The notes: a model not told the origin generated them from the letters alone. A stretch of DNA of 32,089 nt from an uncultured Bifidobacteriaceae bacterium (GCA_964413505.1 CAYPTV010000001.1:1-32089); one strand, 5' to 3'; positions 6,292-19,449 are shown, numbered from the stretch's first letter. Made by a program: numbers and translations.

Positions 6292-6678
6292 ATGAGAGAT
6301 TACACGAAGATTGAAGCGTGGAAACTGGCGGACGATTTGACGGTGGCCGTCTATGAACAAACACGGCTATTTCCAAGAGAGGAAATTTATGGGCTGACCA
6401 GCCAGTTGCGCCGCGCTTCGTATTCCGTGCCTGCAAATATTGTGGAAGGTTCCTCGCGCGAGAGCAAAAAGGACTACTTGCACTTCCTTTACATTTCGCG
6501 TGGCTCGTTATCGGAAACCCAGTATTTCATTCACTTGTCACGGCGGCTTGGCTATCTGTCTGTCGCGGATGCAGAGCGATTGATTGGACAGACCCGACAG
6601 ACGTTTGCGTGTTTGCACGGCTTGATTAAGGCAGTCGAAAAAGAGGCGGGGAAGTTTGGAAAGTCAGTAGTCCCGTAG
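6292..6678 (+). CDS. Four-helix-bundle protein (23S rRNA intervening-sequence protein / Avd-like family)
   Basis: YTKIEAWKLADDLTVAVYEQTRLFPREEIYGLTSQLRRASYSVPANIVEGSSRESKKDYLHFLYISRGSLSETQYFIHLSRRLGYL is the canonical motif set of this family. Confidence 0.88.
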   Translation: MRDYTKIEAWKLADDLTVAVYEQTRLFPREEIYGLTSQLRRASYSVPANIVEGSSRESKKDYLHFLYISRGSLSETQYFIHLSRRLGYLSVADAERLIGQTRQTFACLHGLIKAVEKEAGKFGKSVVP

Positions 6679-11062: not shown

Positions 11063-12016
11063 GTGATTTCAGATACACTCATCCCGCCGGTTCCAGAGGA
11101 CGGAAAACTGCGCCAGTTCTGGTCAGTGATGATTCCGGCCTACAATCCAAACAGGGATTATCTGGAGCAGACATTAAGGAGTGTTCTTGTCCAGGATTCC
11201 GGTTCGGCGCAAATGCAGATCGAGGTGGTGGATGATTGTTCGCCCAAGGTGGACGTGGCGGCGATGGTGCGGGAAATCGCCGGGGATCGAATCAAAGTTT
11301 CGCAAACGTCCAAGAACCTTGGCCTGGCCGGTTGCTGGAACACCTGCATAGAGCGTTCTCGTGGCGAATGGGTGCATATCCTGCATCAGGATGATTATGT
11401 CTTGCCCGAATTTTATCAAACACTGGCAAAGACGGCAGGGCGTCATCCGGAGATTGGCCTGCTCGCGACGCGTTCATTTTTTATAGATCATGAAAATACA
11501 ATTCTAGGGGTCACGCCCCGGTTATGCGGAATGGAAAATGGCTCGCGTAAAGCAGACGATTTCTTTTACGGCACACCGATTCAATGTCCCGGGGTGGTTG
11601 TGAAACGATCTGTCTATCAAGCGCATGGAGGGTTCAGGTCGGATTTGATATTTACCCTGGACTGCGAAATGTGGGCGCGGGTTATCAGCAACGCGGGCGG
11701 ATTGGTTACATCAGCAGTGTTAGCCTGTTATCGTTCTTCGGATGGCAATGAAACCAGCCGATTAAAACGATATGGCAAAGATCTGCACGACTACGAACGG
11801 TTGAACCAGCTTTTTGCATCCCGCTACCCGAGTTTTTCAGCAAGGCGTGCTCGAGAACGGATGTGCGACATGGCGTTGGGGCAAGCGTTGCAATTTTCAT
11901 TGGCAGGTGACCACGCCTCCTCCAAGGCTAATTCAGCCTATTGGAGGCAAAATGCAACGGCCAAGTTGTGGTTTCGCCGGCTGACGCAAAAGCTGGAGCG
12001 AACTTTGTTCAAATAA
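11063..12016 (+). CDS. Glycosyltransferase family 2
   Basis: WSVMIPAYNPNRDYLEQTLRSVLVQ...QIEVVDDCS...ILHQDDY. The start is a GTG at 11063; ATG 11129 is the alternative. Confidence 0.8.
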   Translation: MISDTLIPPVPEDGKLRQFWSVMIPAYNPNRDYLEQTLRSVLVQDSGSAQMQIEVVDDCSPKVDVAAMVREIAGDRIKVSQTSKNLGLAGCWNTCIERSRGEWVHILHQDDYVLPEFYQTLAKTAGRHPEIGLLATRSFFIDHENTILGVTPRLCGMENGSRKADDFFYGTPIQCPGVVVKRSVYQAHGGFRSDLIFTLDCEMWARVISNAGGLVTSAVLACYRSSDGNETSRLKRYGKDLHDYERLNQLFASRYPSFSARRARERMCDMALGQALQFSLAGDHASSKANSAYWRQNATAKLWFRRLTQKLERTLFK

Positions 12017-12105
12017 TCATTCCGGATGACGCAGACGAAGCGGATAAATATCAAGAAAATCCGCGTTCATCAGTGAAATCTGTGGATTCAAAAGGGTATC
12101 GCCCG

Positions 12106-12437
12106 CAAAACACTTCGTAAAACTGTCAAAACGATTTGTGATTGGAGCATAACGATTCATGTCGCGGACAAATCCCTTCGTATTTGCCTCAAAACACTGT
12201 TATGCGCTGGCTAAAATCTTTTGTTCGGGAACAAAACACTGTTGTTATGTGCAAAACACTTTTGTATGGAGCCGGATACGATTTGTTTGCGGCAGAACAC
12301 TTTTACTTTGGGACAAAACACTGTTGTTCCGGCCCAAAATGAAAGTGTTTCAGTCAAAACACTGTTGTTCCGGTGTAAAACACATCGTCTTTGAAGCCAT
12401 TCAATTCATGTTTGCGCAAAAACTGGGATTATCTTGT
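12106..12437 (+). repeat. Degenerate tandem array of about 16 units of 20-21 bp (core CAAAACACTGTTGTT)
   Basis: Units start at 12106, 12127, 12148, 12169, 12190, 12211, 12232, 12252, 12273, 12293, 12314, 12335, 12355, 12376, 12397 and 12417. caaaacactgttgttccgg is identical at 12314-12332 and 12355-12373. Confidence 0.85.
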
Positions 12438-12550
12438 TCACAAACAATGCTGGTAGGGCGCGTCACTTGTATCTTGTATTTTATCTTCCTTGTTTGGCGA
12501 CAGCCAAACGGGAAGTTATGTGCATAATCTCACATCAGTGCCAAAAATGC

Positions 12551-12578
12551 TTGAAAATTTCCTCATTTTGTGTATTTT
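12551..12578 (+). promoter_or_regulatory. Candidate sigma70-like promoter for the giant gene
   Basis: TTGAAA (12551-12556), a 16-nt spacer, then TATTTT (12573-12578) with TG immediately upstream. If used, it excludes the GTG 12570 start and gives a very short leader to ATG 12594. This is a pattern match only. Confidence 0.25.
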
Positions 12579-12593
12579 ACAAGGCATAATTTC

Positions 12594-15500
12594 ATGCAAC
12601 AATTGACAAAGCCAAGGCTGTTTTGCTGCATAAAACGTTTTCTGACGGTTGCTGCGGTTATCCTCGCATTTCAAGCGGTGCTGACACGCGGTGGGCTTCC
12701 CAATCCTGTTGTGCCCATCACATGGAATGGTGCCGCAAGCGGTTTGCCCAACGGGAACTGGGATATTCTTAACACCGCAAACTGGGTCACCACCTCGGGA
12801 GGCGCGCCTTACGAATATCAGGACACGAGCGCGGTGACGTTCGATGATTCGCTGGCCGGCACCACCAATGTCATCCTGACTACGACGCTTTCACCCGGCA
12901 GCATCACGGTGAACAACACGCTTTCAAATTATGTGTTCAGCGGCTCGGGCAAAATCAGCGGGACAACCGGCTTGACAAAAACCGGCAGCGGCACATTGGT
13001 TGTGGACAACAGCGGCTCGAATGCTTTCAGCGGCAGTGTCACCATCAGTGCCGGGACAATCCAGATTGGCAACGGCGACGCCAGCGGAAACCTGCCGGGT
13101 GCGGTGATTGACAACGGTTCATTGATCTTCAACCGTGGCGATACCAGCCTCACCCATGCGGGCGTCATTTCTGGAACCGGCACGGTGTTCAATAACGGCA
13201 GTGGCACGGTGACTTTGAGCGTTGCCAACACCTTTACTGGCGGGCTCACCCTTAACAACGGCACGTTGATGGTCAACAGCACCGGCAATGGCAGCACTTC
13301 GTTGGGTGGCGTGGCCAACAACACCAGTTCAACCGCTGCCGCCAATGTGACCGTCAACGCCGGTGCCACCCTGGTGGGACTTGGTGCCGATGCATTTGGT
13401 TACTATCCGCATACAGCACCCGGAACCATCTTCATCAACGGTGGAACCGTTACGGACGTTGGAACCTCCAGTTATCGTATCACGCTGCCAAATCTGACCT
13501 TCACCGGCGGCACACTGGCCAGCGCCGCAGGGAATGCCGGCGACGCCAATGGGAATTACTCACTGTATGGCACCGGAGCGCCGTGCACCATAACCACCTT
13601 GAGCAACAACACAACGGCGGTCATCAGTGCTGGAATAATAACTTTGCAGCAGAACAATCAACCCACCGGAACGACCGCCTTCAATGTCGCTGCTGGCAAT
13701 GTCACCGGTGGAATGACTCCCGGAGTGGATTTACTCGTGTCTTCAGTCATTGCAAATTTCGGCGCTGAAGTGGGCAGCGTTCTAAAAACCGGTTCGGGCG
13801 TCATGGCTTTGGATTCAACCAACCTCTACACCGGCACGACGACTGTCAGCGGCGGGACGCTACAGTTGGGCACGACCAATGACACGGCTGTGTTGGCCGA
13901 GCCCGTGGGCACAGGAGCGGTAACCAACAATGCCATCCTGAATTTTGCCAGCGGCCAGGGGGTCGCCGTCCACAACATCATCAGCGGCACTGGCGCGGTG
14001 GTGGTGAGCAGCGGAACCAACATCCTTACGGCCACGAACACCTATGCTGGGAATACGATGGTGAAAGCGGGCATACTGTTGTTGACTGGCAGCAGCTCGA
14101 TAGCCAACAGTCCGACCATCACGTTAGCGAGTGGCGCAACATTTGATGTGTCCCAGCTGGCCAGTCCGTTCACCGTGGGCGCGGGCCAGACTTTGGGCGG
14201 CAGCGGAATCATTTCAGGGAACGTGATTGTCAATGGAAAGCTCCAGACCGGCGTGACCAATACAATTAACGGGAATCTCACTTACAATACCGGAACCGAG
14301 GCGGATTTTAATTTAAACACCAGCGCCACGGGCGGAGGCAATGATCAGACAGTCTTGAATGGCGCTGGCAGCATCCTGTCTTGCGGCGGAGCGAGCATCG
14401 GCATCAATTGCGGCGCAATCCTGGATCAGGCAAATGATTACACGCTCTTCAACCTGACCGGCGGCTCGGCCAGCATCGTGAGCAATTTCAATGTCATGCC
14501 AGTCTGGACTGGAACGACTCCGGCCAATGCCAGTTCCTATGGTATTGTGATCTTGCGAAACAAAGTCCTGCTTCACTTTAATTCCACTGGCACGACAAAT
14601 CTACCGGTGGTTACGAACCTTCCGGCCTCAAACATTGCTGCAACGACTGCGACTTTGAACGGCCAGGTGCTTTCGACGGGCGGCCAGTATCCGGCGGTCA
14701 ACATTTATTACGGCACAACCGATGGCGGGACAAATCCGGCGGCGTGGGCAACGAATGTTTCTTTGGGGTTGCAAACCGGATCCTTTGCCGCGGCGGCTTT
14801 CAACCTGACTACAAACACCACCTACTACTTCACCACTTCAGCCTCAAACTCGGCGGGCATGGCCTGGGCTACGCCTTCACAGTCATTCACCACGACGGTG
14901 GCGAGCGTGGCCGTGGCAACAAACCTGCCGGCTTCAAATGTGCAGGGCAGCTCGGCAATCCTGAACGGCCAGATTCTCTCCATCGGCAGTCAAGTCCCAA
15001 CAGTGACCTTGTATTATGGCCCGACCGATGGCGGAACCAATGCCTCAAACTGGGCGAACAATGTTTATCTCGGCCAGCAGGGCGGAAACTTTATCGTCAC
15101 AGTCACCGGCCTGTCCACCAACACGACTTATTATTATGCTGCAGCCGCCACAAACATCGCCGGCACGGCCTGGGCCAGCCCTTCAGCCAACTTCACCACA
15201 CTGCCGACGGCTCTCGTAGTTTCGGTGCTGACCTATCATTATGACAATGCGCGAACCGGGGCCAACACCAACGAGACATTGCTGACACCTTCGATTGTCA
15301 ACACGAACAGCTTCGGTCTATTGATCAAGTATGTGGTGGACGGGTTTGTTGTCGCTCAGCCATTGTATGTGCCAAGCGTGGCCATTCCCGGGCAAGGCAC
15401 TCATAACGTCGTGTTTGTGGCGACCGAGAATGCCAGTATTTATGCCTTTGACGCGGACGGCAACACGGCGGTAAATGGCGGATTATTATGGCACACCAAC

Positions 15501-18500
15501 CTGGGGATAGTGCCTTTACTCAGCAATGGTGAATTTGGCTATCGTTATGGAATCGGTAATGGCCTCAACATAGGTTATTATGAACAGGGCATCACCGACA
15601 CGCCTGTCATCGACCCTGTTTCTGGAACGATTTATGTGGATGTTCTTACGCGTGAAGTCACGACAACAACGAATTATTACCATCGTATCCACGCCTTGAG
15701 CATCACCAACGGCATGGAACAATCCTACAGCCCGGTGGTGGTCACTGCTTCGGTTCCTGGAACCGGCATGGACAGCTCGAACGGAGTGGTGACATTTAAT
15801 GCCAAGCAACAAAACCAACGCCCCGGACTGACGCTTGCCGGCGGAATTTTATACGTCGCCTATGGCAGTTTTAACGACACCGATCCGTTTCATGGCTGGG
15901 TCATGGGTTTCAACGCCACCAATCTCGTTCAATTGACCAACTGCATTTTCAACACCACGCCCAACGCGACGACAAATGTATTTGGCCCAAATGCCGGTGA
16001 AGGTGCGCTGTGGATGGGCGGTGATGGATTATGCGTGGACGCCAACAACAACCTCTTTTTTCAAACGGGCAATGGCAGCTTCAGCGCAAATACCAACGGC
16101 GGGGATTACGCTGACAGCATGATCAAGCTCTCCACGTCCAATTCACTGGCGGTGGCCGACTATTTCACCCCCTACAATCAGCTCACGCTGGCCAACTTCG
16201 ACATTGATCTTGGCTCGTGCGGCGCTGTCTTGTTGCCAGACTCGGTCGGGAGCACGAACCATCCGCATCTGATCGTGTCAACCGGCAAAAGCGGAACGAT
16301 TTATCTCGTGGACCGGGATAACATGGGACATTACCACGGCACTGATGGCATCAACGGAAATGACAGCCAGATTGTGCAATCCGTGATTGGTGCGACCGCA
16401 AGCACATGGAGTTCCCCCGCCTATTTCAACAACCAGATTTATCTGCAGCCCAGCAGCGCCGCAATGAAGGCATTCATTATCACCAATGGCGTCATTGTCC
16501 CATCGATCACCTCCGTGGCTGCGGCGGGCGTTGGCCTGGTTAACGGCGGGCCGATCATTTCCGCCAACGGCGCAAGCAATGGGATTGTCTGGGTGCTGAA
16601 TAACAACTCTGGTGGCGGCACGGAGACATTGTATGCCTGCACCGCCAACAATATCGCACAGCAGCTCTACAACAGCAGCCAGCTTTCGCGGGACAATCCA
16701 GGCTTCGGGATAAAGATGACCACACCCATGGTGGCCAACGGGAAGGTGTATGTCGGGGCGCAGTATGCGTTGTCGGTGTATGGATTGACGACATTTGTGG
16801 CGACGCCCACCATCTCGCCCAACGGCATCGCATTCACCAATTCAGTGACGGTGACATTGAGCGACGCGACGGCGGGCACGGCGATCTATTACACCCTGAA
16901 CGGCACTATCCCGACGACGAATTCGCTGCTATACACAGGGCCCTTTGCCATCACCACCACGTTGAACTTGCAGGCCATCGCGGTAAAATCCGGTGCGGTG
17001 AACAGCGGGGTGGCGTCTGCCTCTTTTGTCAACACGGCCGCCTTGGGCAGCGGCATCGGATTGCTGGGCCAATACTGGACGAACACGAGTGCGCTGGCGT
17101 TCACGAATATTTCATTCAACACTGCGGCGACATTGACGCGGACGGACGCGGTGGTGAACTACAATTGGAGCACGAACGGGCCTGATCCCAGCATTGGGCA
17201 GACGAACTTCATCGCCAGCTGGACCGGGTCGGTGCAGCCGCAATACAGCGAGACCTACACCTTCACCACCGTTGCGGATGACGGGGTGCGTCTGTGGGTC
17301 AACGGGCAGTTGTTGATTGACGACTGGAACACTCATTCATCTACGACGACCAACAGCGGGAGCATCTCGCTCAATGCGCAGGAGCTTTACAACATCCAGA
17401 TGGATTATTTCCAGGGCGGCAGCAACGCCGTGGCACAACTGATGTGGAGCAGTCTCTCCGCGGCACAAAACATCATTCCGCAGACACAACTTTATCCCTA
17501 CACGAACTCGCCGCCGGCGGTCGTGCTTTCAAGCCCGGCGAACAACTCAAGTTACACCGCGACGGCGAGCGTGACGATCGGCGCGAATGCGGATGCGGCC
17601 TATAATCCAATCAGCGCGGTGAGTTTCTACGCCAACGGCGTTTTGCTGGGCACGGTGAGCAACAGCCCCTACGCACCGCTTTACGAACTGACGGCAACGG
17701 GGCTTGGCGCGGGCAGTTATGCGTTGACGGCGGTGGCCACGGACGGGAGCGGATTGTGCAGCACGTCGGCGTCGGTGAACATCACGGTCAACGCTGGGAG
17801 CGGAGCGCCCTACGGACTGACAAACACCGTTCCGGTCTCCGCGTTCCTGAACATGCCGACGACCTTCAACGGGGCATTGCCGGCATTGCTCTCAGGAACG
17901 GGAGCATTCAGCGACACCACCAACCGCATACCAGCTGGCGGATTGATTCCCTACCAGCCCAACACGCCGCTGTGGTCGGACGGCGCGGTCAAGAGCCGGT
18001 ATATGGTGGTGCCCAATCCCGCTCCGAGCGGGAGCGGGACGATCACGCCTGATCAGCAAATCGCCTTTGCACCGACCAACAACTGGACGTTCCCTGCGGG
18101 GACTGTGTTTGTGAAGAACTTCGACCTTGTGGTGGACCAGACCAGCACGAACACGCCCCTGCGCCGGCTGGAGACTCGTTTGCTGGTGCGGAACATCAAC
18201 GGAGCGGTGTATGGCGTGACCTACAAGTGGCGTCCGGACAACAGCGATGCCGATCTGCTCTCAAGCAGCCTGACGGAGAACATCTTGATCACCAATGCTA
18301 CAGGTGTGAGCACTCAGGCTTGGTATTACCCCAGCCCTGCGGACTGCCTGACCTGCCACACGCCCGTGGCCAATTATGTGCTGGGCGTCAACACACGGCA
18401 GTTGAACGGCAGCCTGACCTATCCCGCCACCGGTGTCACGGACAACCAGCTGAGGACATTGAACCATCTGGGCCTGTTCAACCCGGCGTTCGACGAATCA

Positions 18501-19334
18501 ACCATCACGAACTTTGAAAGCCTCTCGGCGCTGACCAATCTCACCGCATCACTGGAGGAACGGGCTCGCTCTTACCTTGATGCCAACTGCGCGCAGTGCC
18601 ATCAGCCCGGCGGATCGGGCATCACCTTCGACGCGCGCTACGACACGCCGCTCTCCCGGCAGAACATCACCAACTATCCGGCAGCATTCTCGCTGGGGGT
18701 GGACAGCGCCTGCATCATCAAGGCGGACGATGTCTGGCGTTCGGTGCTGCTGGCGCGCATCAACACCAATGCCGCGGCTATCAAGATGCCGCCGCTGGCG
18801 CGCAGCATCATTGACACCAACGCCGTGCAGGTGATTGCCGGCTGGATCAACAGCCTGTCGGGCATGCCCACCCTGGCACCGCCGGTCATCACGCCAAACG
18901 GCGGCAGCTACTACGCCTCGGTGGGTGTCACCCTCACGCCGCCCGACACCAATGCGGCCATCTACTACACGCTGGACGGCTCTCTGCCCACGACCGGTTC
19001 GCTGCAGTATTCGGGCGCGTTCAACCTGACGGGCAACGCGACCGTCACGGCCAGCGCGTTCGAGACTAACTTCAACAACAGCATCGGGGCCGGCGCGCAG
19101 TTCCTGGTGCAGCCGCTCAACTTCACGTCGCTGGGCTACAACACGGCCGGCGGCCAGTTCCAGATGGGCTTCGAGGGCGTCATGGGCGAAACCTATGTGC
19201 TCCAGGCCACCACCAATTTCACCGACTGGACCCCCATCAGCACCAACAACGCCACAACCAATTTCTTAAACCTCACAGACCCAGACTCCACCAACTTTCA
19301 GAACAGATTCTACAGGGTTCTGTTAATACAGTAA
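12594..19334 (+). CDS. Giant secreted multidomain surface protein (PATR beta-helix repeats, FN3-like x2, beta-propeller, PA14, Ig-like, dihaem-type module)
   Basis: A single uninterrupted ORF of 2254 aa from GTG 12570, or 2246 aa from ATG 12594. It has an N-terminal hydrophobic signal/anchor [22 protein letters not shown]. Domain evidence is listed in the sub-features below. Confidence 0.9.
   Translation: [2246 protein letters not shown]
12930..14580 (+). other. Domain: autotransporter-associated beta-strand (PATR) repeats / beta-helix region
   Basis: At least four PATR-type units: [109 protein letters not shown] and [35 protein letters not shown]. Confidence 0.75.
14598..15209 (+). repeat. 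Two tandem 102-aa (306-nt) FN3-like modules inside the giant gene
   Basis: TNLPASN starts at 14613 and again at 14919. Both copies share LNGQ(V/I)LS.G...P.V..YYG.TDGGTN...W.N.V.LG.Q.G.F......L..NTTYY......N.AG.AWA.PS..FTT at roughly 50 percent identity. Confidence 0.7.
15228..16790 (+). other. Domain: beta-propeller-like region (PQQ-like repeat type)
   Basis: [21 protein letters not shown]...AQPLYV...[19 protein letters not shown]...GTIYVDV...GILYVAYGS...[10 protein letters not shown]...[12 protein letters not shown]...[17 protein letters not shown] shows recurrent strand motifs typical of this propeller class. The assignment is from memory of the family and is not HMM-verified. Confidence 0.5.
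17050..17460 (+). other. Domain: PA14 (carbohydrate-binding/adhesin-type)
   Basis: GLLGQYWTN...[11 protein letters not shown]...[43 protein letters not shown]...[24 protein letters not shown] is the classic PA14 pattern. Confidence 0.8.
17805..18865 (+). other. Domain: two-CXXCH putative dihaem c-type cytochrome-like module
   Basis: CLTCH at 18345-18359 and CAQCH at 18588-18602. The context [18 protein letters not shown]...ETRLLVR...YKWR...[15 protein letters not shown]...IKMPPLAR resembles, from memory, the TIGR03806 / SO2930-type dihaem family. Confidence 0.5.
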
Positions 19335-19354
19335 TCAGGGGGAAGGCTGACATT

Positions 19355-19449
19355 CTGAAAATTGAAAATGACACAACAGAGGTCGGAAGTCAGAGGTCAG
19401 AGGTCCATTTCAGCTTTTTAGCTTTTCAAATTTTCAGTTTTTGATTTTT
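19355..19449 (+). repeat. Junction element B: 14-bp stem enclosing CAGAGGTC repeats, with a T-rich 3' side ending at the next ATG
   Basis: CTGAAAATTGAAAA (19355-19368) pairs with TTTTCAAATTTTCAG (19423-19437), leaving one bulged T. CAGAGGTC occurs at 19377, 19391 and 19398. ATTTCAGCTTTTT is at 19408. The element ends tttttgatttttATG. Confidence 0.65.

What the first reader, a model, noticed from the sequence alone, without database searches (positions are those of the whole stretch)
12106..12437. About 16 phased 21-bp repeats (CAAAACACTGTTGTT core) fill the spacer upstream of the giant gene
Units start every 20-21 nt without interruption (12106, 12127, 12148, 12169, 12190, 12211, 12232, 12252, 12273, 12293, 12314, 12335, 12355, 12376, 12397, 12417). 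The 19-mer caaaacactgttgttccgg is identical at 12314 and 12355. The unit at 12232 shares 15 nt with it and the unit at 12190 shares 12 nt. A second subtype (caaaacgatttgtg, cataacgattcatg, cggatacgatttgt) alternates with the first. The core holds the palindrome AACA-c-TGTT, which resembles a dimeric-protein site, and an A4 tract. A-tracts repeated at 21 bp (two helical turns) stay on one face of the helix, which predicts intrinsic curvature or a one-sided protein filament. The block is clearly AT-rich relative to its flanks and sits exactly between a GT2 stop (12016) and the start of the 2250-aa gene. I do not know of a described regulatory array of this form. Candidate roles are an iteron-like operator array, a nucleoid-protein silencing/nucleation site, a curved upstream activating region, or a transcribed protein-sponge RNA.
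Basis: partly seen in the sequence, partly recalled or inferred. Interest (0 to 1): 0.78.

Follow-up and report, generated by a model that had tools for sequence, protein, structure and literature searches.

The report
Portable phased 21-bp repeat array
Sixteen phased 21-base repeats really do sit upstream of the giant surface-protein gene, but they form a portable, dispensable DNA module that also occurs at other loci in related soil and peat bacteria. The module belongs to a described but unexplained class of 20-21-base bacterial repeats and most likely acts as a curved, one-sided protein-binding platform.

Summary
There are sixteen 20/21-bp units (mean 20.7 bp) at 12106-12437. Lag-21 autocorrelation is 0.46, against a maximum of 0.37 in shuffles.

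The link to the giant gene is not supported.
- The closest relative (GT2 84% aa) keeps the same GT2 stop, the same promoter-like region and the same gene start, but lacks the array.
- The array plus an 80-nt REP-like leader (12025-12422) is 81.5% identical, unit by unit, to an element beside an unrelated small FN3-protein gene in peat metagenomes.
- More diverged sister arrays (13-16 units) lie at further loci.

Evolution of the family:
- Between collinear arrays, the blocks CAAAACA (positions 1-7) and TTTG (15-18) change more slowly than the rest of the unit.
- Unit length stays 20-21 bp.
- Arrays vary by 42-bp steps, exchange units, and one strain has lost its array entirely.

No RNA family, covariation, conserved promoter, conserved ORF, Rep gene or terminal inverted repeat was found. 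A wedge model predicts the strongest curvature in the window.

It fits the published "constant-size 20-21 nt, variable-sequence" bacterial repeats, whose function is unknown.

Best reading (about 0.45): a phased, curved protein-binding platform that modulates neighbouring promoters. A neutral satellite or a transcribed RNA remain possible.

The parts
12025..12105 (+). Leader shared with sister elements. Its 5' two-thirds (about 12025-12091) is a REP-like sequence that also occurs alone and inverted elsewhere. The last part (...GGATTCAAAAGGGTATCGCCCG) directly abuts unit 1.
   Evidence: BLAST: leader 82% identical to L255, 86-89% to L280/L328. Extra inverted copies at L328:741-804 and L349:1478-1543. 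Alignment. No second copy in the window.
12106..12437 (+). Array of 16 units of 20/21 bp. Family consensus is CAAAACA-N7-T(T)TG-N3. Homology with sister arrays runs to about 12422.
   Evidence: periodicity; unit-by-unit collinearity with L255/L380 and L372; logo from 56 units: positions 1-7 at 1.1-1.7 bits, position 15 at 1.2 bits, positions 19-20 about 0.2 bits.
12296..12349 (.). Longest imperfect inverted repeat inside the array (25-nt arms, 80% complementary, 4-nt gap). It arises because unit 12 (12335) is an inverted copy of the unit 10 type.
   Evidence: Conserved in L255/L380. No compensatory support for an RNA helix.
12438..12538 (+). Window-specific spacer between the array and the promoter-proximal region. 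No homology to sister elements or to L004.
   Evidence: 'tail' query hits only the identical contigs L001-L003.
12539..12593 (+). Promoter-proximal region conserved with the array-less relative L004. It contains a sigma-70-like TTGAAA-16-TATTTT at 12551-12578.
   Evidence: window 12539-12690 = L004 1019-1171, about 84% nt identity.
12594..19334 (+). Giant secreted repeat protein (PATR, CHB_HEX_C, PA14, Big_7 domains). It is a neighbour of the element, not a conserved partner.
11063..12016 (+). GT2 glycosyltransferase. Its stop lies 8 nt before the element. In more distant relatives it is followed directly by the orthologue of the GT2 at 19441.

Best explanation
The array works at the DNA level as a phased protein-binding platform. 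Each 20.7-bp unit (two helical turns) carries a bipartite site, CAAAACA plus T(T)TG at a fixed offset. All sites therefore face the same side of an intrinsically curved, AT-rich segment of about 330 bp.

A sequence-specific DNA-binding protein is inferred to occupy the units side by side. The resulting bent nucleoprotein structure would raise or lower the activity of whichever promoter lies next to it. Here that is the promoter-like element about 115 bp downstream, in front of the giant gene. A MarA-sized AraC-family protein is one candidate.

The array is a self-contained, portable and dispensable module, not a built-in operator of this gene.

Shown: the repeat, its phasing, family membership, site-specific conservation, portability and dispensability. 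Inferred: protein binding, the identity of the binder, and any effect on transcription.
For: 1. Phasing. Unit length is held at 20-21 bp in every family member (means 20.67-20.93). AA/AAA Fourier power peaks at 10.35 and 20.7 bp.

2. Site-specific constraint. Between collinear arrays, positions 1-7 and 15-18 are more conserved than the other positions: 0.84 vs 0.73 (p=0.014), 0.64 vs 0.51 (p=0.018), 0.66 vs 0.49 (p=0.0025). Positions 19-21 are near saturation. The TTTG block keeps a fixed register relative to CAAAACA. That fits recognition of duplex DNA better than hairpins with variable loops.

3. Predicted curvature. End-to-end/contour ratio is 0.52, against a window mean of 0.889 (sd 0.076). 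Eight of the ten most curved 332-bp windows overlap the array. Dephasing with 5-bp inserts restores 0.886. Sister arrays give 0.06-0.37.

4. Position. In the window the array ends 113 nt before a -35-like hexamer. In the FN3 loci it starts about 100-130 bp upstream of a conserved TGGCAY-N5-ATGC (sigma-54-like) element that points towards the divergent FN3 gene.

5. Persistence. The array is kept at the FN3 locus in lineages whose FN3 proteins are 80-100% identical. It is invariant across four samples each for two loci.

6. Candidate binder. Small stand-alone AraC-family DNA-binding proteins (108 and 121 aa, 80% identical to each other) are encoded about 0.8 kb downstream of two sister arrays. 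From established knowledge (my recollection, not tested here), MarA/SoxS-type monomers cover about 20 bp through two helix-turn-helix motifs one helical turn apart.

7. Published class. The constant 20-21-nt size with a short conserved core matches the published class, for which protein polymerisation on DNA was proposed (PMC8161180). Among 120 genome hits carrying CAAAACAC three times, spacing 21 accounts for 44 of 240 spacings, against 10.4 expected.
Against: - No binding protein has been identified.
- The small AraC-type gene is absent near the array in the window and in the L380-type locus.
- The array is dispensable. It is missing at the orthologous site in L004 and deleted in strain L383, which has an identical FN3 protein.
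- Copy number differs between L280 and L328 (15 vs 13 units).
- Arrays evolve faster than their flanks (about 70% vs about 90% identity).
- The array's orientation and side relative to the neighbouring gene are not constant.
- Any tandem repeat with a period near 21 bp is predicted to be curved, so curvature is not independent of the periodicity. The wedge parameters were recalled from memory.
- The conserved-block test used positions chosen from within-array conservation, and alignments of repeats lean towards the motif.
Confidence: 0.45

Rival explanations
1. Neutral or selfish minisatellite. The array is a by-product of slippage, unequal exchange and gene conversion. It is tolerated in intergenic DNA and has no function for the cell.
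For: - Absent at the orthologous site in L004 and deleted in L383.
- 42-bp copy-number difference between L280 and L328.
- Units 11-14 of L381/L382 are replaced by L328-type units, which indicates conversion.
- Arrays diverge faster than their flanks.
Against: - Conversion homogenises whole units. Here the core blocks are conserved while the intervening positions differ between units and between collinear arrays.
- Unit length stays 20-21 bp, and changes come in 42-bp steps.
- The array has persisted collinearly through about 35-40% divergence.
- There is no length polymorphism among four samples for each of two loci.
- The same preferred period occurs in unrelated sequence families across phyla (PMC8161180).
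Confidence: 0.22
2. Transcribed repeat RNA. The array would be a protein- or RNA-sponge sRNA, or a structured intercistronic leader of the giant-gene mRNA.
For: - No terminator lies between GT2 and the array, so read-through from the operon is likely in the window.
- The sequence folds better than shuffles (z = -3.2).
- Terminator-like hairpins with T runs lie 110-200 nt after the arrays in L372, L255 and L328 (read by eye, not flagged by the scan).
- 52-nt bacterial satellites have been reported as transcribed (PMC8625621).
Against: - The reverse strand folds equally well (z = -3.0), as expected from DNA-level dyads.
- RNAalifold gives a positive (penalising) covariation term of +4.24 kcal/mol.
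- There is no Rfam match even at E <= 1.
- The sequence directly upstream of unit 1 differs between L372, L380, L376 and L289, so there is no conserved promoter.
- In the FN3 loci the upstream gene is divergent, so there is no read-through.
- GGA motifs are not enriched (7 vs 3.8 +/- 1.7, p = 0.06) and A(N)GGA is absent.
- An RNA has no reason to keep a two-helical-turn period.
Confidence: 0.12
3. Recombination or insertion hotspot, or a silencing-nucleation site at the edge of horizontally acquired DNA. The curved, AT-rich array would mark boundaries of variable regions, attract insertions, or nucleate a nucleoid-associated silencer over acquired genes.
For: - In the window the array sits inside a segment (array plus giant gene) that is inserted between two GT2 genes relative to L005, L006 and L008.
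- In L380/L255 a SIR2/HsdR_N defence island follows the array. In L372 the same position holds other genes.
- In L383 the breakpoint lies exactly at the leader/array junction, and an integrase gene is nearby.
- In L289 an IS3 element abuts an array.
Against: - The sample of loci is small and was selected by the motif search.
- No recombinase is consistently linked.
- The conserved bipartite core is not needed for a merely curved, AT-rich target.
- No H-NS-like protein was examined.
Confidence: 0.1
4. Iterons or a centromere-like site of a replicon (plasmid or phage origin, or partition site).
For: Direct repeats of about 21 bp at two-turn spacing and an AT-rich context resemble iteron arrays (general knowledge). 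The leader has a 7/9 DnaA-box-like TGTGGAT.
Against: - No Rep, ParA/ParB-type partition or phage gene lies next to any family member.
- There are no matches in the plasmid or phage collections.
- The DnaA-like heptamer is not conserved (TGCGGAT, CCTGGAT in sister leaders).
- The contexts are chromosomal housekeeping neighbourhoods (rnpA-yidC near L372).
Confidence: 0.03

Closest known systems
Constant-size (20-21 nt) non-coding tandem repeats of bacteria (Subirana & Messeguer, J Bacteriol 2020, as summarised in PMC8161180)
   Same: - Unit of 20-21 nt, with related 40-42-nt higher-order steps.
- Non-coding.
- A short characteristic sequence is conserved in every unit while the rest varies.
- Lineage-specific families at several loci.
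- Function unknown.
   Different: - This family comes from probable Verrucomicrobiota in soil and peat metagenomes, a group not named in the text I could read.
- Units here are far more degenerate (about 60-70% identity) than typical catalogue entries.
- The array travels with a REP-like leader.
- Here there is added evidence for collinear conservation, site-specific constraint, and presence/absence polymorphism.
Plasmid and phage iterons (RK2, pSC101, P1, lambda ori)
   Same: 17-22-bp direct repeats spaced at two helical turns, bound side by side by one protein, and often bent DNA.
   Different: - No initiator gene, DNA-unwinding element or conserved DnaA box.
- 13-16 copies rather than 3-9.
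- Chromosomal intergenic contexts.
AraC/XylS-family operators (araI1-I2, XylS Pm sites, 20-bp marbox of MarA/SoxS/Rob)
   Same: Asymmetric sites of about 20 bp with two recognition blocks roughly one helical turn apart. Direct repeats at 21-bp centre-to-centre spacing. MarA-sized AraC-type genes lie near two sister arrays.
   Different: - Known operators have 1-2 sites, not 16.
- The sequence does not match the E. coli marbox.
- No such gene lies next to the window's array.
- Binding is untested.
Upstream curved DNA (phased A-tracts) and nucleoid-protein nucleation sites
   Same: A-tracts in helical phase, AT-rich relative to the flanks, promoter-proximal, and predicted to be the most curved DNA in the region.
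   Different: Here there is a sequence-specific conserved core, not just A-tracts. There is one A4 tract per two turns. No nucleoid-associated protein is known for this lineage.
Protein-sponge sRNAs (CsrB/RsmZ, CrcZ)
   Same: About 350-400 nt with many copies of a short motif.
   Different: No own conserved promoter or terminator, no GGA or CA-motif enrichment, no covariation, and equal folding on both strands.
REP/BIME-type interspersed elements
   Same: The leader is a short interspersed palindromic-type sequence found in both orientations at other sites. The whole module occurs at unrelated loci without terminal inverted repeats.
   Different: BIMEs are mosaics of REP hairpins, not phased 21-bp direct-repeat arrays. 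No RAYT transposase was seen.

Membership tests
Constant-size 20-21-nt non-coding bacterial tandem repeats (PMC8161180) | Repeat unit constant at 20-21 nt (occasionally 40-41) | tested here: met
   Units are 20 or 21 nt in all six arrays, with means of 20.67-20.93. The L280/L328 difference is one 42-bp block.
Constant-size 20-21-nt non-coding bacterial tandem repeats (PMC8161180) | Does not encode amino-acid repeats | tested here: met
   20-nt units shift the frame. The 122-aa ORF 12159-12527 has no Pfam hit and no counterpart in the 81.5%-identical L255 array.
Constant-size 20-21-nt non-coding bacterial tandem repeats (PMC8161180) | Short characteristic sequence conserved in all units while the rest varies | tested here: met
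   CAAAACA at positions 1-7 (1.1-1.7 bits) and T at position 15 plus TTG at 16-18. Positions 19-20 carry about 0.2 bits.
Constant-size 20-21-nt non-coding bacterial tandem repeats (PMC8161180) | Several arrays or families per genome, lineage-specific | tested here: inconclusive
   At least three locus types carry related arrays in metagenomes. Only 32 kb of the source genome is available, and it holds one array.
Iterons of a replication origin | Adjacent initiator (Rep) gene, AT-rich unwinding element and DnaA box | tested here: not met
   No Rep-like domain in the window or in sister loci. The DnaA-like heptamer is not conserved. No plasmid or phage similarity.
CRISPR array | Repeats of 23-50 nt separated by unique spacers of similar length; cas genes or a leader | tested here: not met
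   The period is 21 nt with only 3-7 variable nt between the conserved blocks. No cas genes are present.
Sponge-type sRNA (CsrB/RsmZ/CrcZ) or any Rfam family | Match to a curated RNA family, or conserved structure with covariation | tested here: not met
   Rfam gives 0 hits at the gathering threshold and 0 at E <= 1. The covariation term is +4.24. Both strands fold equally well.
Sponge-type sRNA (CsrB/RsmZ/CrcZ) or any Rfam family | Own promoter and terminator; enriched protein-binding motif (GGA) | tested here: not met
   No conserved sequence lies upstream of unit 1 among sister arrays. No terminator is predicted. GGA count is 7 vs 3.8 +/- 1.7, and AGGA is 0.
MITE / TIR-bounded mobile element | Terminal inverted repeats and target-site duplication | tested here: not met
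   No inverted repeat bounds 12025-12422. The best end-spanning pair is 19 nt at 74%. No duplication appears at the homology borders.
AraC/XylS (MarA-type) operator array | Asymmetric site of about 20 bp with two recognition blocks about one helical turn apart | tested here: inconclusive
   The blocks at positions 1-7 and 15-18 are 10.5-12.5 bp apart centre to centre. There is no sequence match to the known marbox (comparison from memory).
AraC/XylS (MarA-type) operator array | Cognate AraC-family protein binds the units | not testable with these tools
   There is adjacency only. Genes of 108 and 121 aa with HTH_18 domains lie 0.8 kb downstream of the L328 and L372 arrays. The window's AraC-type gene is unrelated to them.
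Intrinsically curved upstream DNA | A-tracts in phase with the helical repeat and a curved predicted path | tested here: met
   AA power peaks at 10.35 and 20.7 bp. The wedge-model ratio is 0.52 against 0.889 +/- 0.076, and the effect is lost on dephasing. Parameters were recalled from memory, so the values are approximate.
Intrinsically curved upstream DNA | Alters activity of the adjacent promoter | not testable with these tools
   This needs reporter assays or transcript data.

The most novel reading that the evidence does not exclude
The 21-bp arrays are portable 'enhancer/decoy cassettes'. On this reading, 13-16 one-sided docking sites on intrinsically curved DNA are bound cooperatively by a MarA-like mini-AraC protein (or another dedicated binder). 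The array would then act as a movable transcription-factor reservoir or architectural switch that can be pasted in front of different surface-protein, polysaccharide or defence genes. This would give the first mechanism for the enigmatic 20-21-nt (two-turn) and 52-nt (five-turn) constant-size repeats seen across bacterial phyla.
Probability: 0.15. Interest if true: 0.75.

Novelty: new member of a known kind. Interest (0 to 1): 0.5.

Why it matters
Constant-size 20-21-nt repeats have been catalogued in many bacterial phyla without any functional evidence. This family offers a tractable case for four reasons.
- Collinear arrays at different loci and divergence levels show which positions are constrained: CAAAACA-N7-TTTG, with the period fixed at two helical turns.
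- Natural alleles exist with the array present, partly exchanged, length-shifted by 42 bp, or deleted.
- There is a candidate binder, a MarA-sized AraC-family protein.
- A concrete target promoter lies next to the array: a giant adhesin-like gene inside a polysaccharide locus.

If the arrays prove to be protein-binding platforms, they would define a new kind of modular bacterial cis-element. If they prove neutral, the strict two-turn period still needs a mechanistic explanation.

Tried and rejected
**Searches that returned nothing or only noise**
- Rfam at the gathering threshold and at E <= 1: nothing.
- BLAST of the spacer or element against plasmids and phages: nothing.
- Viral-contig scan for CAAAACACTGTTGTT: only single chance matches.
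It returned unrelated repeats and no recognisable relative of the source organism, so I could not survey the source genome for further copies.
- Two literature searches found no experimental work on such arrays.

**Hypotheses tested and rejected**
- Coding heptad repeat: the frame is broken by 20-nt units and the ORF is not conserved.
- CsrA-type sponge: GGA is not significantly enriched.
- Sigma-54 promoter next to the window's array: none found. One is plausible at the FN3 loci.
- MITE or TIR element: no terminal inverted repeats.
- CRISPR-like array: the geometry is wrong.

**Questions left unresolved**
- Insertion versus deletion at the L004 site. L004's 62-nt spacer has a unit-junction-like stretch (CTTTTAATTTTGGAACAACA), but the match is not significant (7% of shuffles).
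- Giant-gene N-terminus homologues were fetched to look for arrays upstream of other PATR genes. Among the three top N-terminus homologues fetched, L249 has no upstream DNA, and L250 and L251 showed no array in the PWM cluster scan.

Full report
**1.
Window 12106-12437 reads as sixteen consecutive units. Nucleotide identity at lag 21 is 0.463 and at lag 42 is 0.448. The best lag of 2000 shuffles averages 0.315 (sd 0.012, max 0.368), and no other 332-nt window of the 32 kb exceeds 0.401. The 8-mer CAAAACAC occurs six times in the array and once elsewhere on that strand. A position-weight matrix (PWM) built from the units scores at least 12.8 bits only inside the array, with one exception. GC falls to 0.38-0.43, against 0.49-0.58 in the flanks.

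First, the array occupies 332 of the 577 nt between the GT2 stop (12016) and the ATG at 12594, so it does not fill the spacer. Second, four units match the consensus only weakly. Tandem Repeats Finder reports only 12314-12373.

**2. Surroundings.**
The window is a one-strand polysaccharide locus. It encodes a Wza-like exporter, a Wzc-like kinase, ABC-2/Wzt transporter components, GT4 and GT2 glycosyltransferases, acyltransferases and MBOAT (membrane-bound O-acyltransferase) proteins. A 2,246-2,254-aa secreted protein with PATR, CHB_HEX_C, PA14 and Big_7 domains lies in the middle. The names attached to the best homologues point to Verrucomicrobiota. Three metagenome contigs carry the identical spacer.

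**3. The array is not a conserved part of the giant-gene locus.**
In more distant relatives (L005, L006, L008) the GT2 orthologue is followed directly by the orthologue of the GT2 at 19441. The giant gene plus its upstream spacer is therefore an insertion into the operon.

The closest relative, L004 (GT2 84% aa), also has a PATR-type gene after GT2. It shares the GT2 end (window to 12027, 90% nt) and the promoter-proximal region plus signal peptide (window 12539-12690, about 84% nt). That shared region includes a TTGAAA-16-TATTTT element. However, 62 unrelated nt stand in place of window 12028-12538. A unit-like remnant in those 62 nt is not significant, so I could not decide between insertion and deletion.

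**4. The array belongs to a family of portable elements.**
One metagenome scan with a two-core pattern mostly returned unrelated repeats, but it also found true relatives. BLAST and alignments show that window 12025-12422 is 81.5% identical over 400 nt to L255/L380, 79% to L381/L382, and about 70% to L280/L328/L349, L340/L372 and L376. This segment comprises an 80-nt leader plus the 16 units.

The window, L380 and L372 arrays are collinear unit by unit, with 16, 16 and 14 units. The first two-thirds of the leader is a REP-like sequence that also occurs alone and inverted elsewhere.

The genomic contexts differ.
- In L255/L380, L340/L372 and L376 the array lies divergently upstream of a conserved 207-aa FN3-type protein gene.
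- In L280 it lies divergently upstream of an SGNH-like gene.
- In L289 it lies next to an IS3 element.
- None of these arrays is next to a PATR gene.

No terminal inverted repeats bound the element. There is no similarity to plasmids or phages.

**5. How the family evolves.**
Pooling 56 units gives the consensus CAAAACA-N7-T(T)TG-N3. Positions 1-7 carry 1.1-1.7 bits and position 15 carries 1.2 bits, whereas positions 19-20 carry only about 0.2 bits. Unit length is 20-21 nt in every array.

Between collinear arrays the two conserved blocks change less than the other positions: 0.84 vs 0.73 (p=0.014), 0.64 vs 0.51 (p=0.018), and 0.66 vs 0.49 (p=0.0025). There are two caveats. The blocks were chosen from within-array conservation, and repeat alignments lean towards the motif.

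At the FN3 locus the arrays are about 70% identical where the flanks are about 90%.

Population samples show both stability and turnover.
- The window equals three other contigs.
- L372-L375 carry the same 289-nt array, with 0-1 SNP.
- L280 and L328 differ by one 42-bp block.
- Among contigs encoding an identical FN3 protein, L380 has 16 units, L381/L382 have 16 units but with units 11-14 replaced by L328-type units, and L383 has lost the array exactly at the leader/array junction.

**6. DNA-level or RNA-level function?**
The + strand folds with z = -3.2 and the - strand with z = -3.0, so there is no strand asymmetry. RNAalifold on three collinear arrays gives a positive (penalising) covariation term of +4.24 kcal/mol. 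Rfam finds nothing. The sequence directly upstream of unit 1 is not conserved among sister arrays. No terminator is predicted. GGA motifs are not significantly enriched. The 122-aa ORF is not conserved.

In contrast, A-tract power peaks at 10.35 and 20.7 bp. I ran a dinucleotide wedge model using the Bolshoy/Trifonov-type parameters as I recall them, so the values are approximate. It predicts an end-to-end/contour ratio of 0.52 for the array, against 0.889 +/- 0.076 for all windows. Eight of the ten most curved windows overlap the array. Curvature disappears when alternate units are dephased by 5 bp (0.886). Sister arrays give 0.06-0.37, and unrelated 21-bp arrays from other phyla give 0.14-0.62. 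Curvature is a consequence of the two-turn period and is not independent evidence.

**7. Candidate partners.**
Two sister arrays (L328 and L372) are followed about 0.8 kb downstream by small genes encoding only an AraC-family DNA-binding domain (108 and 121 aa, 80% identical to each other). MarA/SoxS-type monomers cover about 20 bp through two helix-turn-helix motifs (established knowledge, recalled and not tested here). The bipartite unit would fit that footprint. The link is weak, however. The L380-type locus has a defence island in that position, and the window's AraC-type gene at 78-752 is unrelated (22% identity).

At the FN3 loci the array starts about 100-130 bp upstream of a conserved TGGCAY-N5-ATGC element and a TGT-N10-ACA palindrome. 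An NtrC-type activator gene follows the FN3 gene. No such promoter lies near the window's array.

**8. Comparison with what is known.**
Subirana and Messeguer described non-coding bacterial tandem repeats with a constant unit of 20-21 nt (plus 40-41 and 52 nt) but variable sequence. Each has a short conserved core and is lineage-specific. Their function is unknown, and the authors proposed either protein polymerisation on DNA or small RNAs (PMC8161180; PMC8625621). The original J Bacteriol paper is not held in the library.

My genome scan agrees with the size preference. Among 120 loci with three CAAAACAC copies spaced 20-42 nt apart, spacing 21 accounts for 44 of 240 spacings, against 10.4 expected. 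At least two of these loci are coding heptad repeats.

The array meets three of the four defining features of this class. The fourth, several arrays per genome, could not be tested. It fails the tests for iterons, CRISPR arrays, sponge sRNAs and MITEs (see the membership table).

**9. Verdict.**
The repeat is real and non-random, and its phasing is under constraint. It is not a dedicated operator of the giant gene. It is a portable, dispensable module of a lineage-specific family within an already described but unexplained class.

The best-supported mechanism, at about 0.45, is a curved, one-sided protein-binding platform that modulates adjacent promoters. The alternatives are:
- a neutral satellite (0.22);
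- a transcribed RNA (0.12);
- a recombination or silencing boundary (0.10);
- a replicon site (0.03).

Noticed in passing
window 19377-19442: Directly after the giant-gene stop there are two short tandem repeats: CAGAGGT x4 and TTTCAGCT x4.4. Similar ATTTCAGC motifs occur in L004's 62-nt spacer and downstream of the L380 array. This is probably another lineage-specific interspersed repeat.
   Followed up: partly
window 12017-19440 versus L005, L006:8001-10885, L008:3232-6031: The giant PATR/PA14 gene with its upstream spacer is an insertion of about 7.4 kb between two GT2 genes. Those two genes are adjacent (0-3 nt apart) in more distant relatives.
   Followed up: yes
L372:5780-6000 (also L380, L376): The FN3-protein gene is preceded by a conserved TGGCAY-N5-ATGC (sigma-54-like) element. 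A perfect palindrome, TTGTGAAACGTTTCACAA (TGT-N10-ACA), lies immediately upstream. An NtrC-type sigma-54 activator gene follows the FN3 gene.
   Followed up: partly
L379:4498-5000: In a more distant FN3 locus (70% aa) the upstream region holds five copies of a repeat of about 36 nt (AATACCAGATTGCTCCGGGGGGAGCGAGATCAAAAC), separated by unique spacers of about 32 nt. It looks like a small CRISPR array.
   Followed up: no
L100:3800-4100 (minus strand), L038, L081: Unrelated genomes (a Bacteroidetes MAG, Hymenobacter, Abditibacteriaceae) carry degenerate 21-bp phased intergenic arrays. The array in L100 has the same bipartite pattern, CAAAAC-N8-GTTTG. All are predicted to be strongly curved.
   Followed up: partly
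L022:524-590, L025:7832-7900, L069:1770-1835, L124:4548-4610: Four Acidobacteriaceae loci from three genomes share a triple 21-bp repeat, CAAAACACCACAnCTTCACCA, preceded by CAAAAATAAAT. One copy lies upstream of a FolD-like gene. This may be a conserved regulatory or RNA element.
   Followed up: no
L383:6608-7000 and L289:1-270: Structural variation occurs at array borders. In L383 the array is deleted exactly after the leader, and an integrase (rve) gene is nearby. In L289 the end of an IS3-family element lies a few nt from the first unit.
   Followed up: partly
window 6292-6678: A gene for a '23S rRNA-intervening sequence protein' (PF05635) lies between the ABC-2 permease and Wzt ATPase genes of the polysaccharide exporter.
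   Followed up: no
L252-L371 (about 60 contigs from Ga0182xxx samples): The metagenome scan was dominated by an unrelated element with two AAAACACTGTT copies exactly 33 nt apart, found on many short contigs from one sample series. It is probably a eukaryotic or plant-associated repeat.
   Followed up: no
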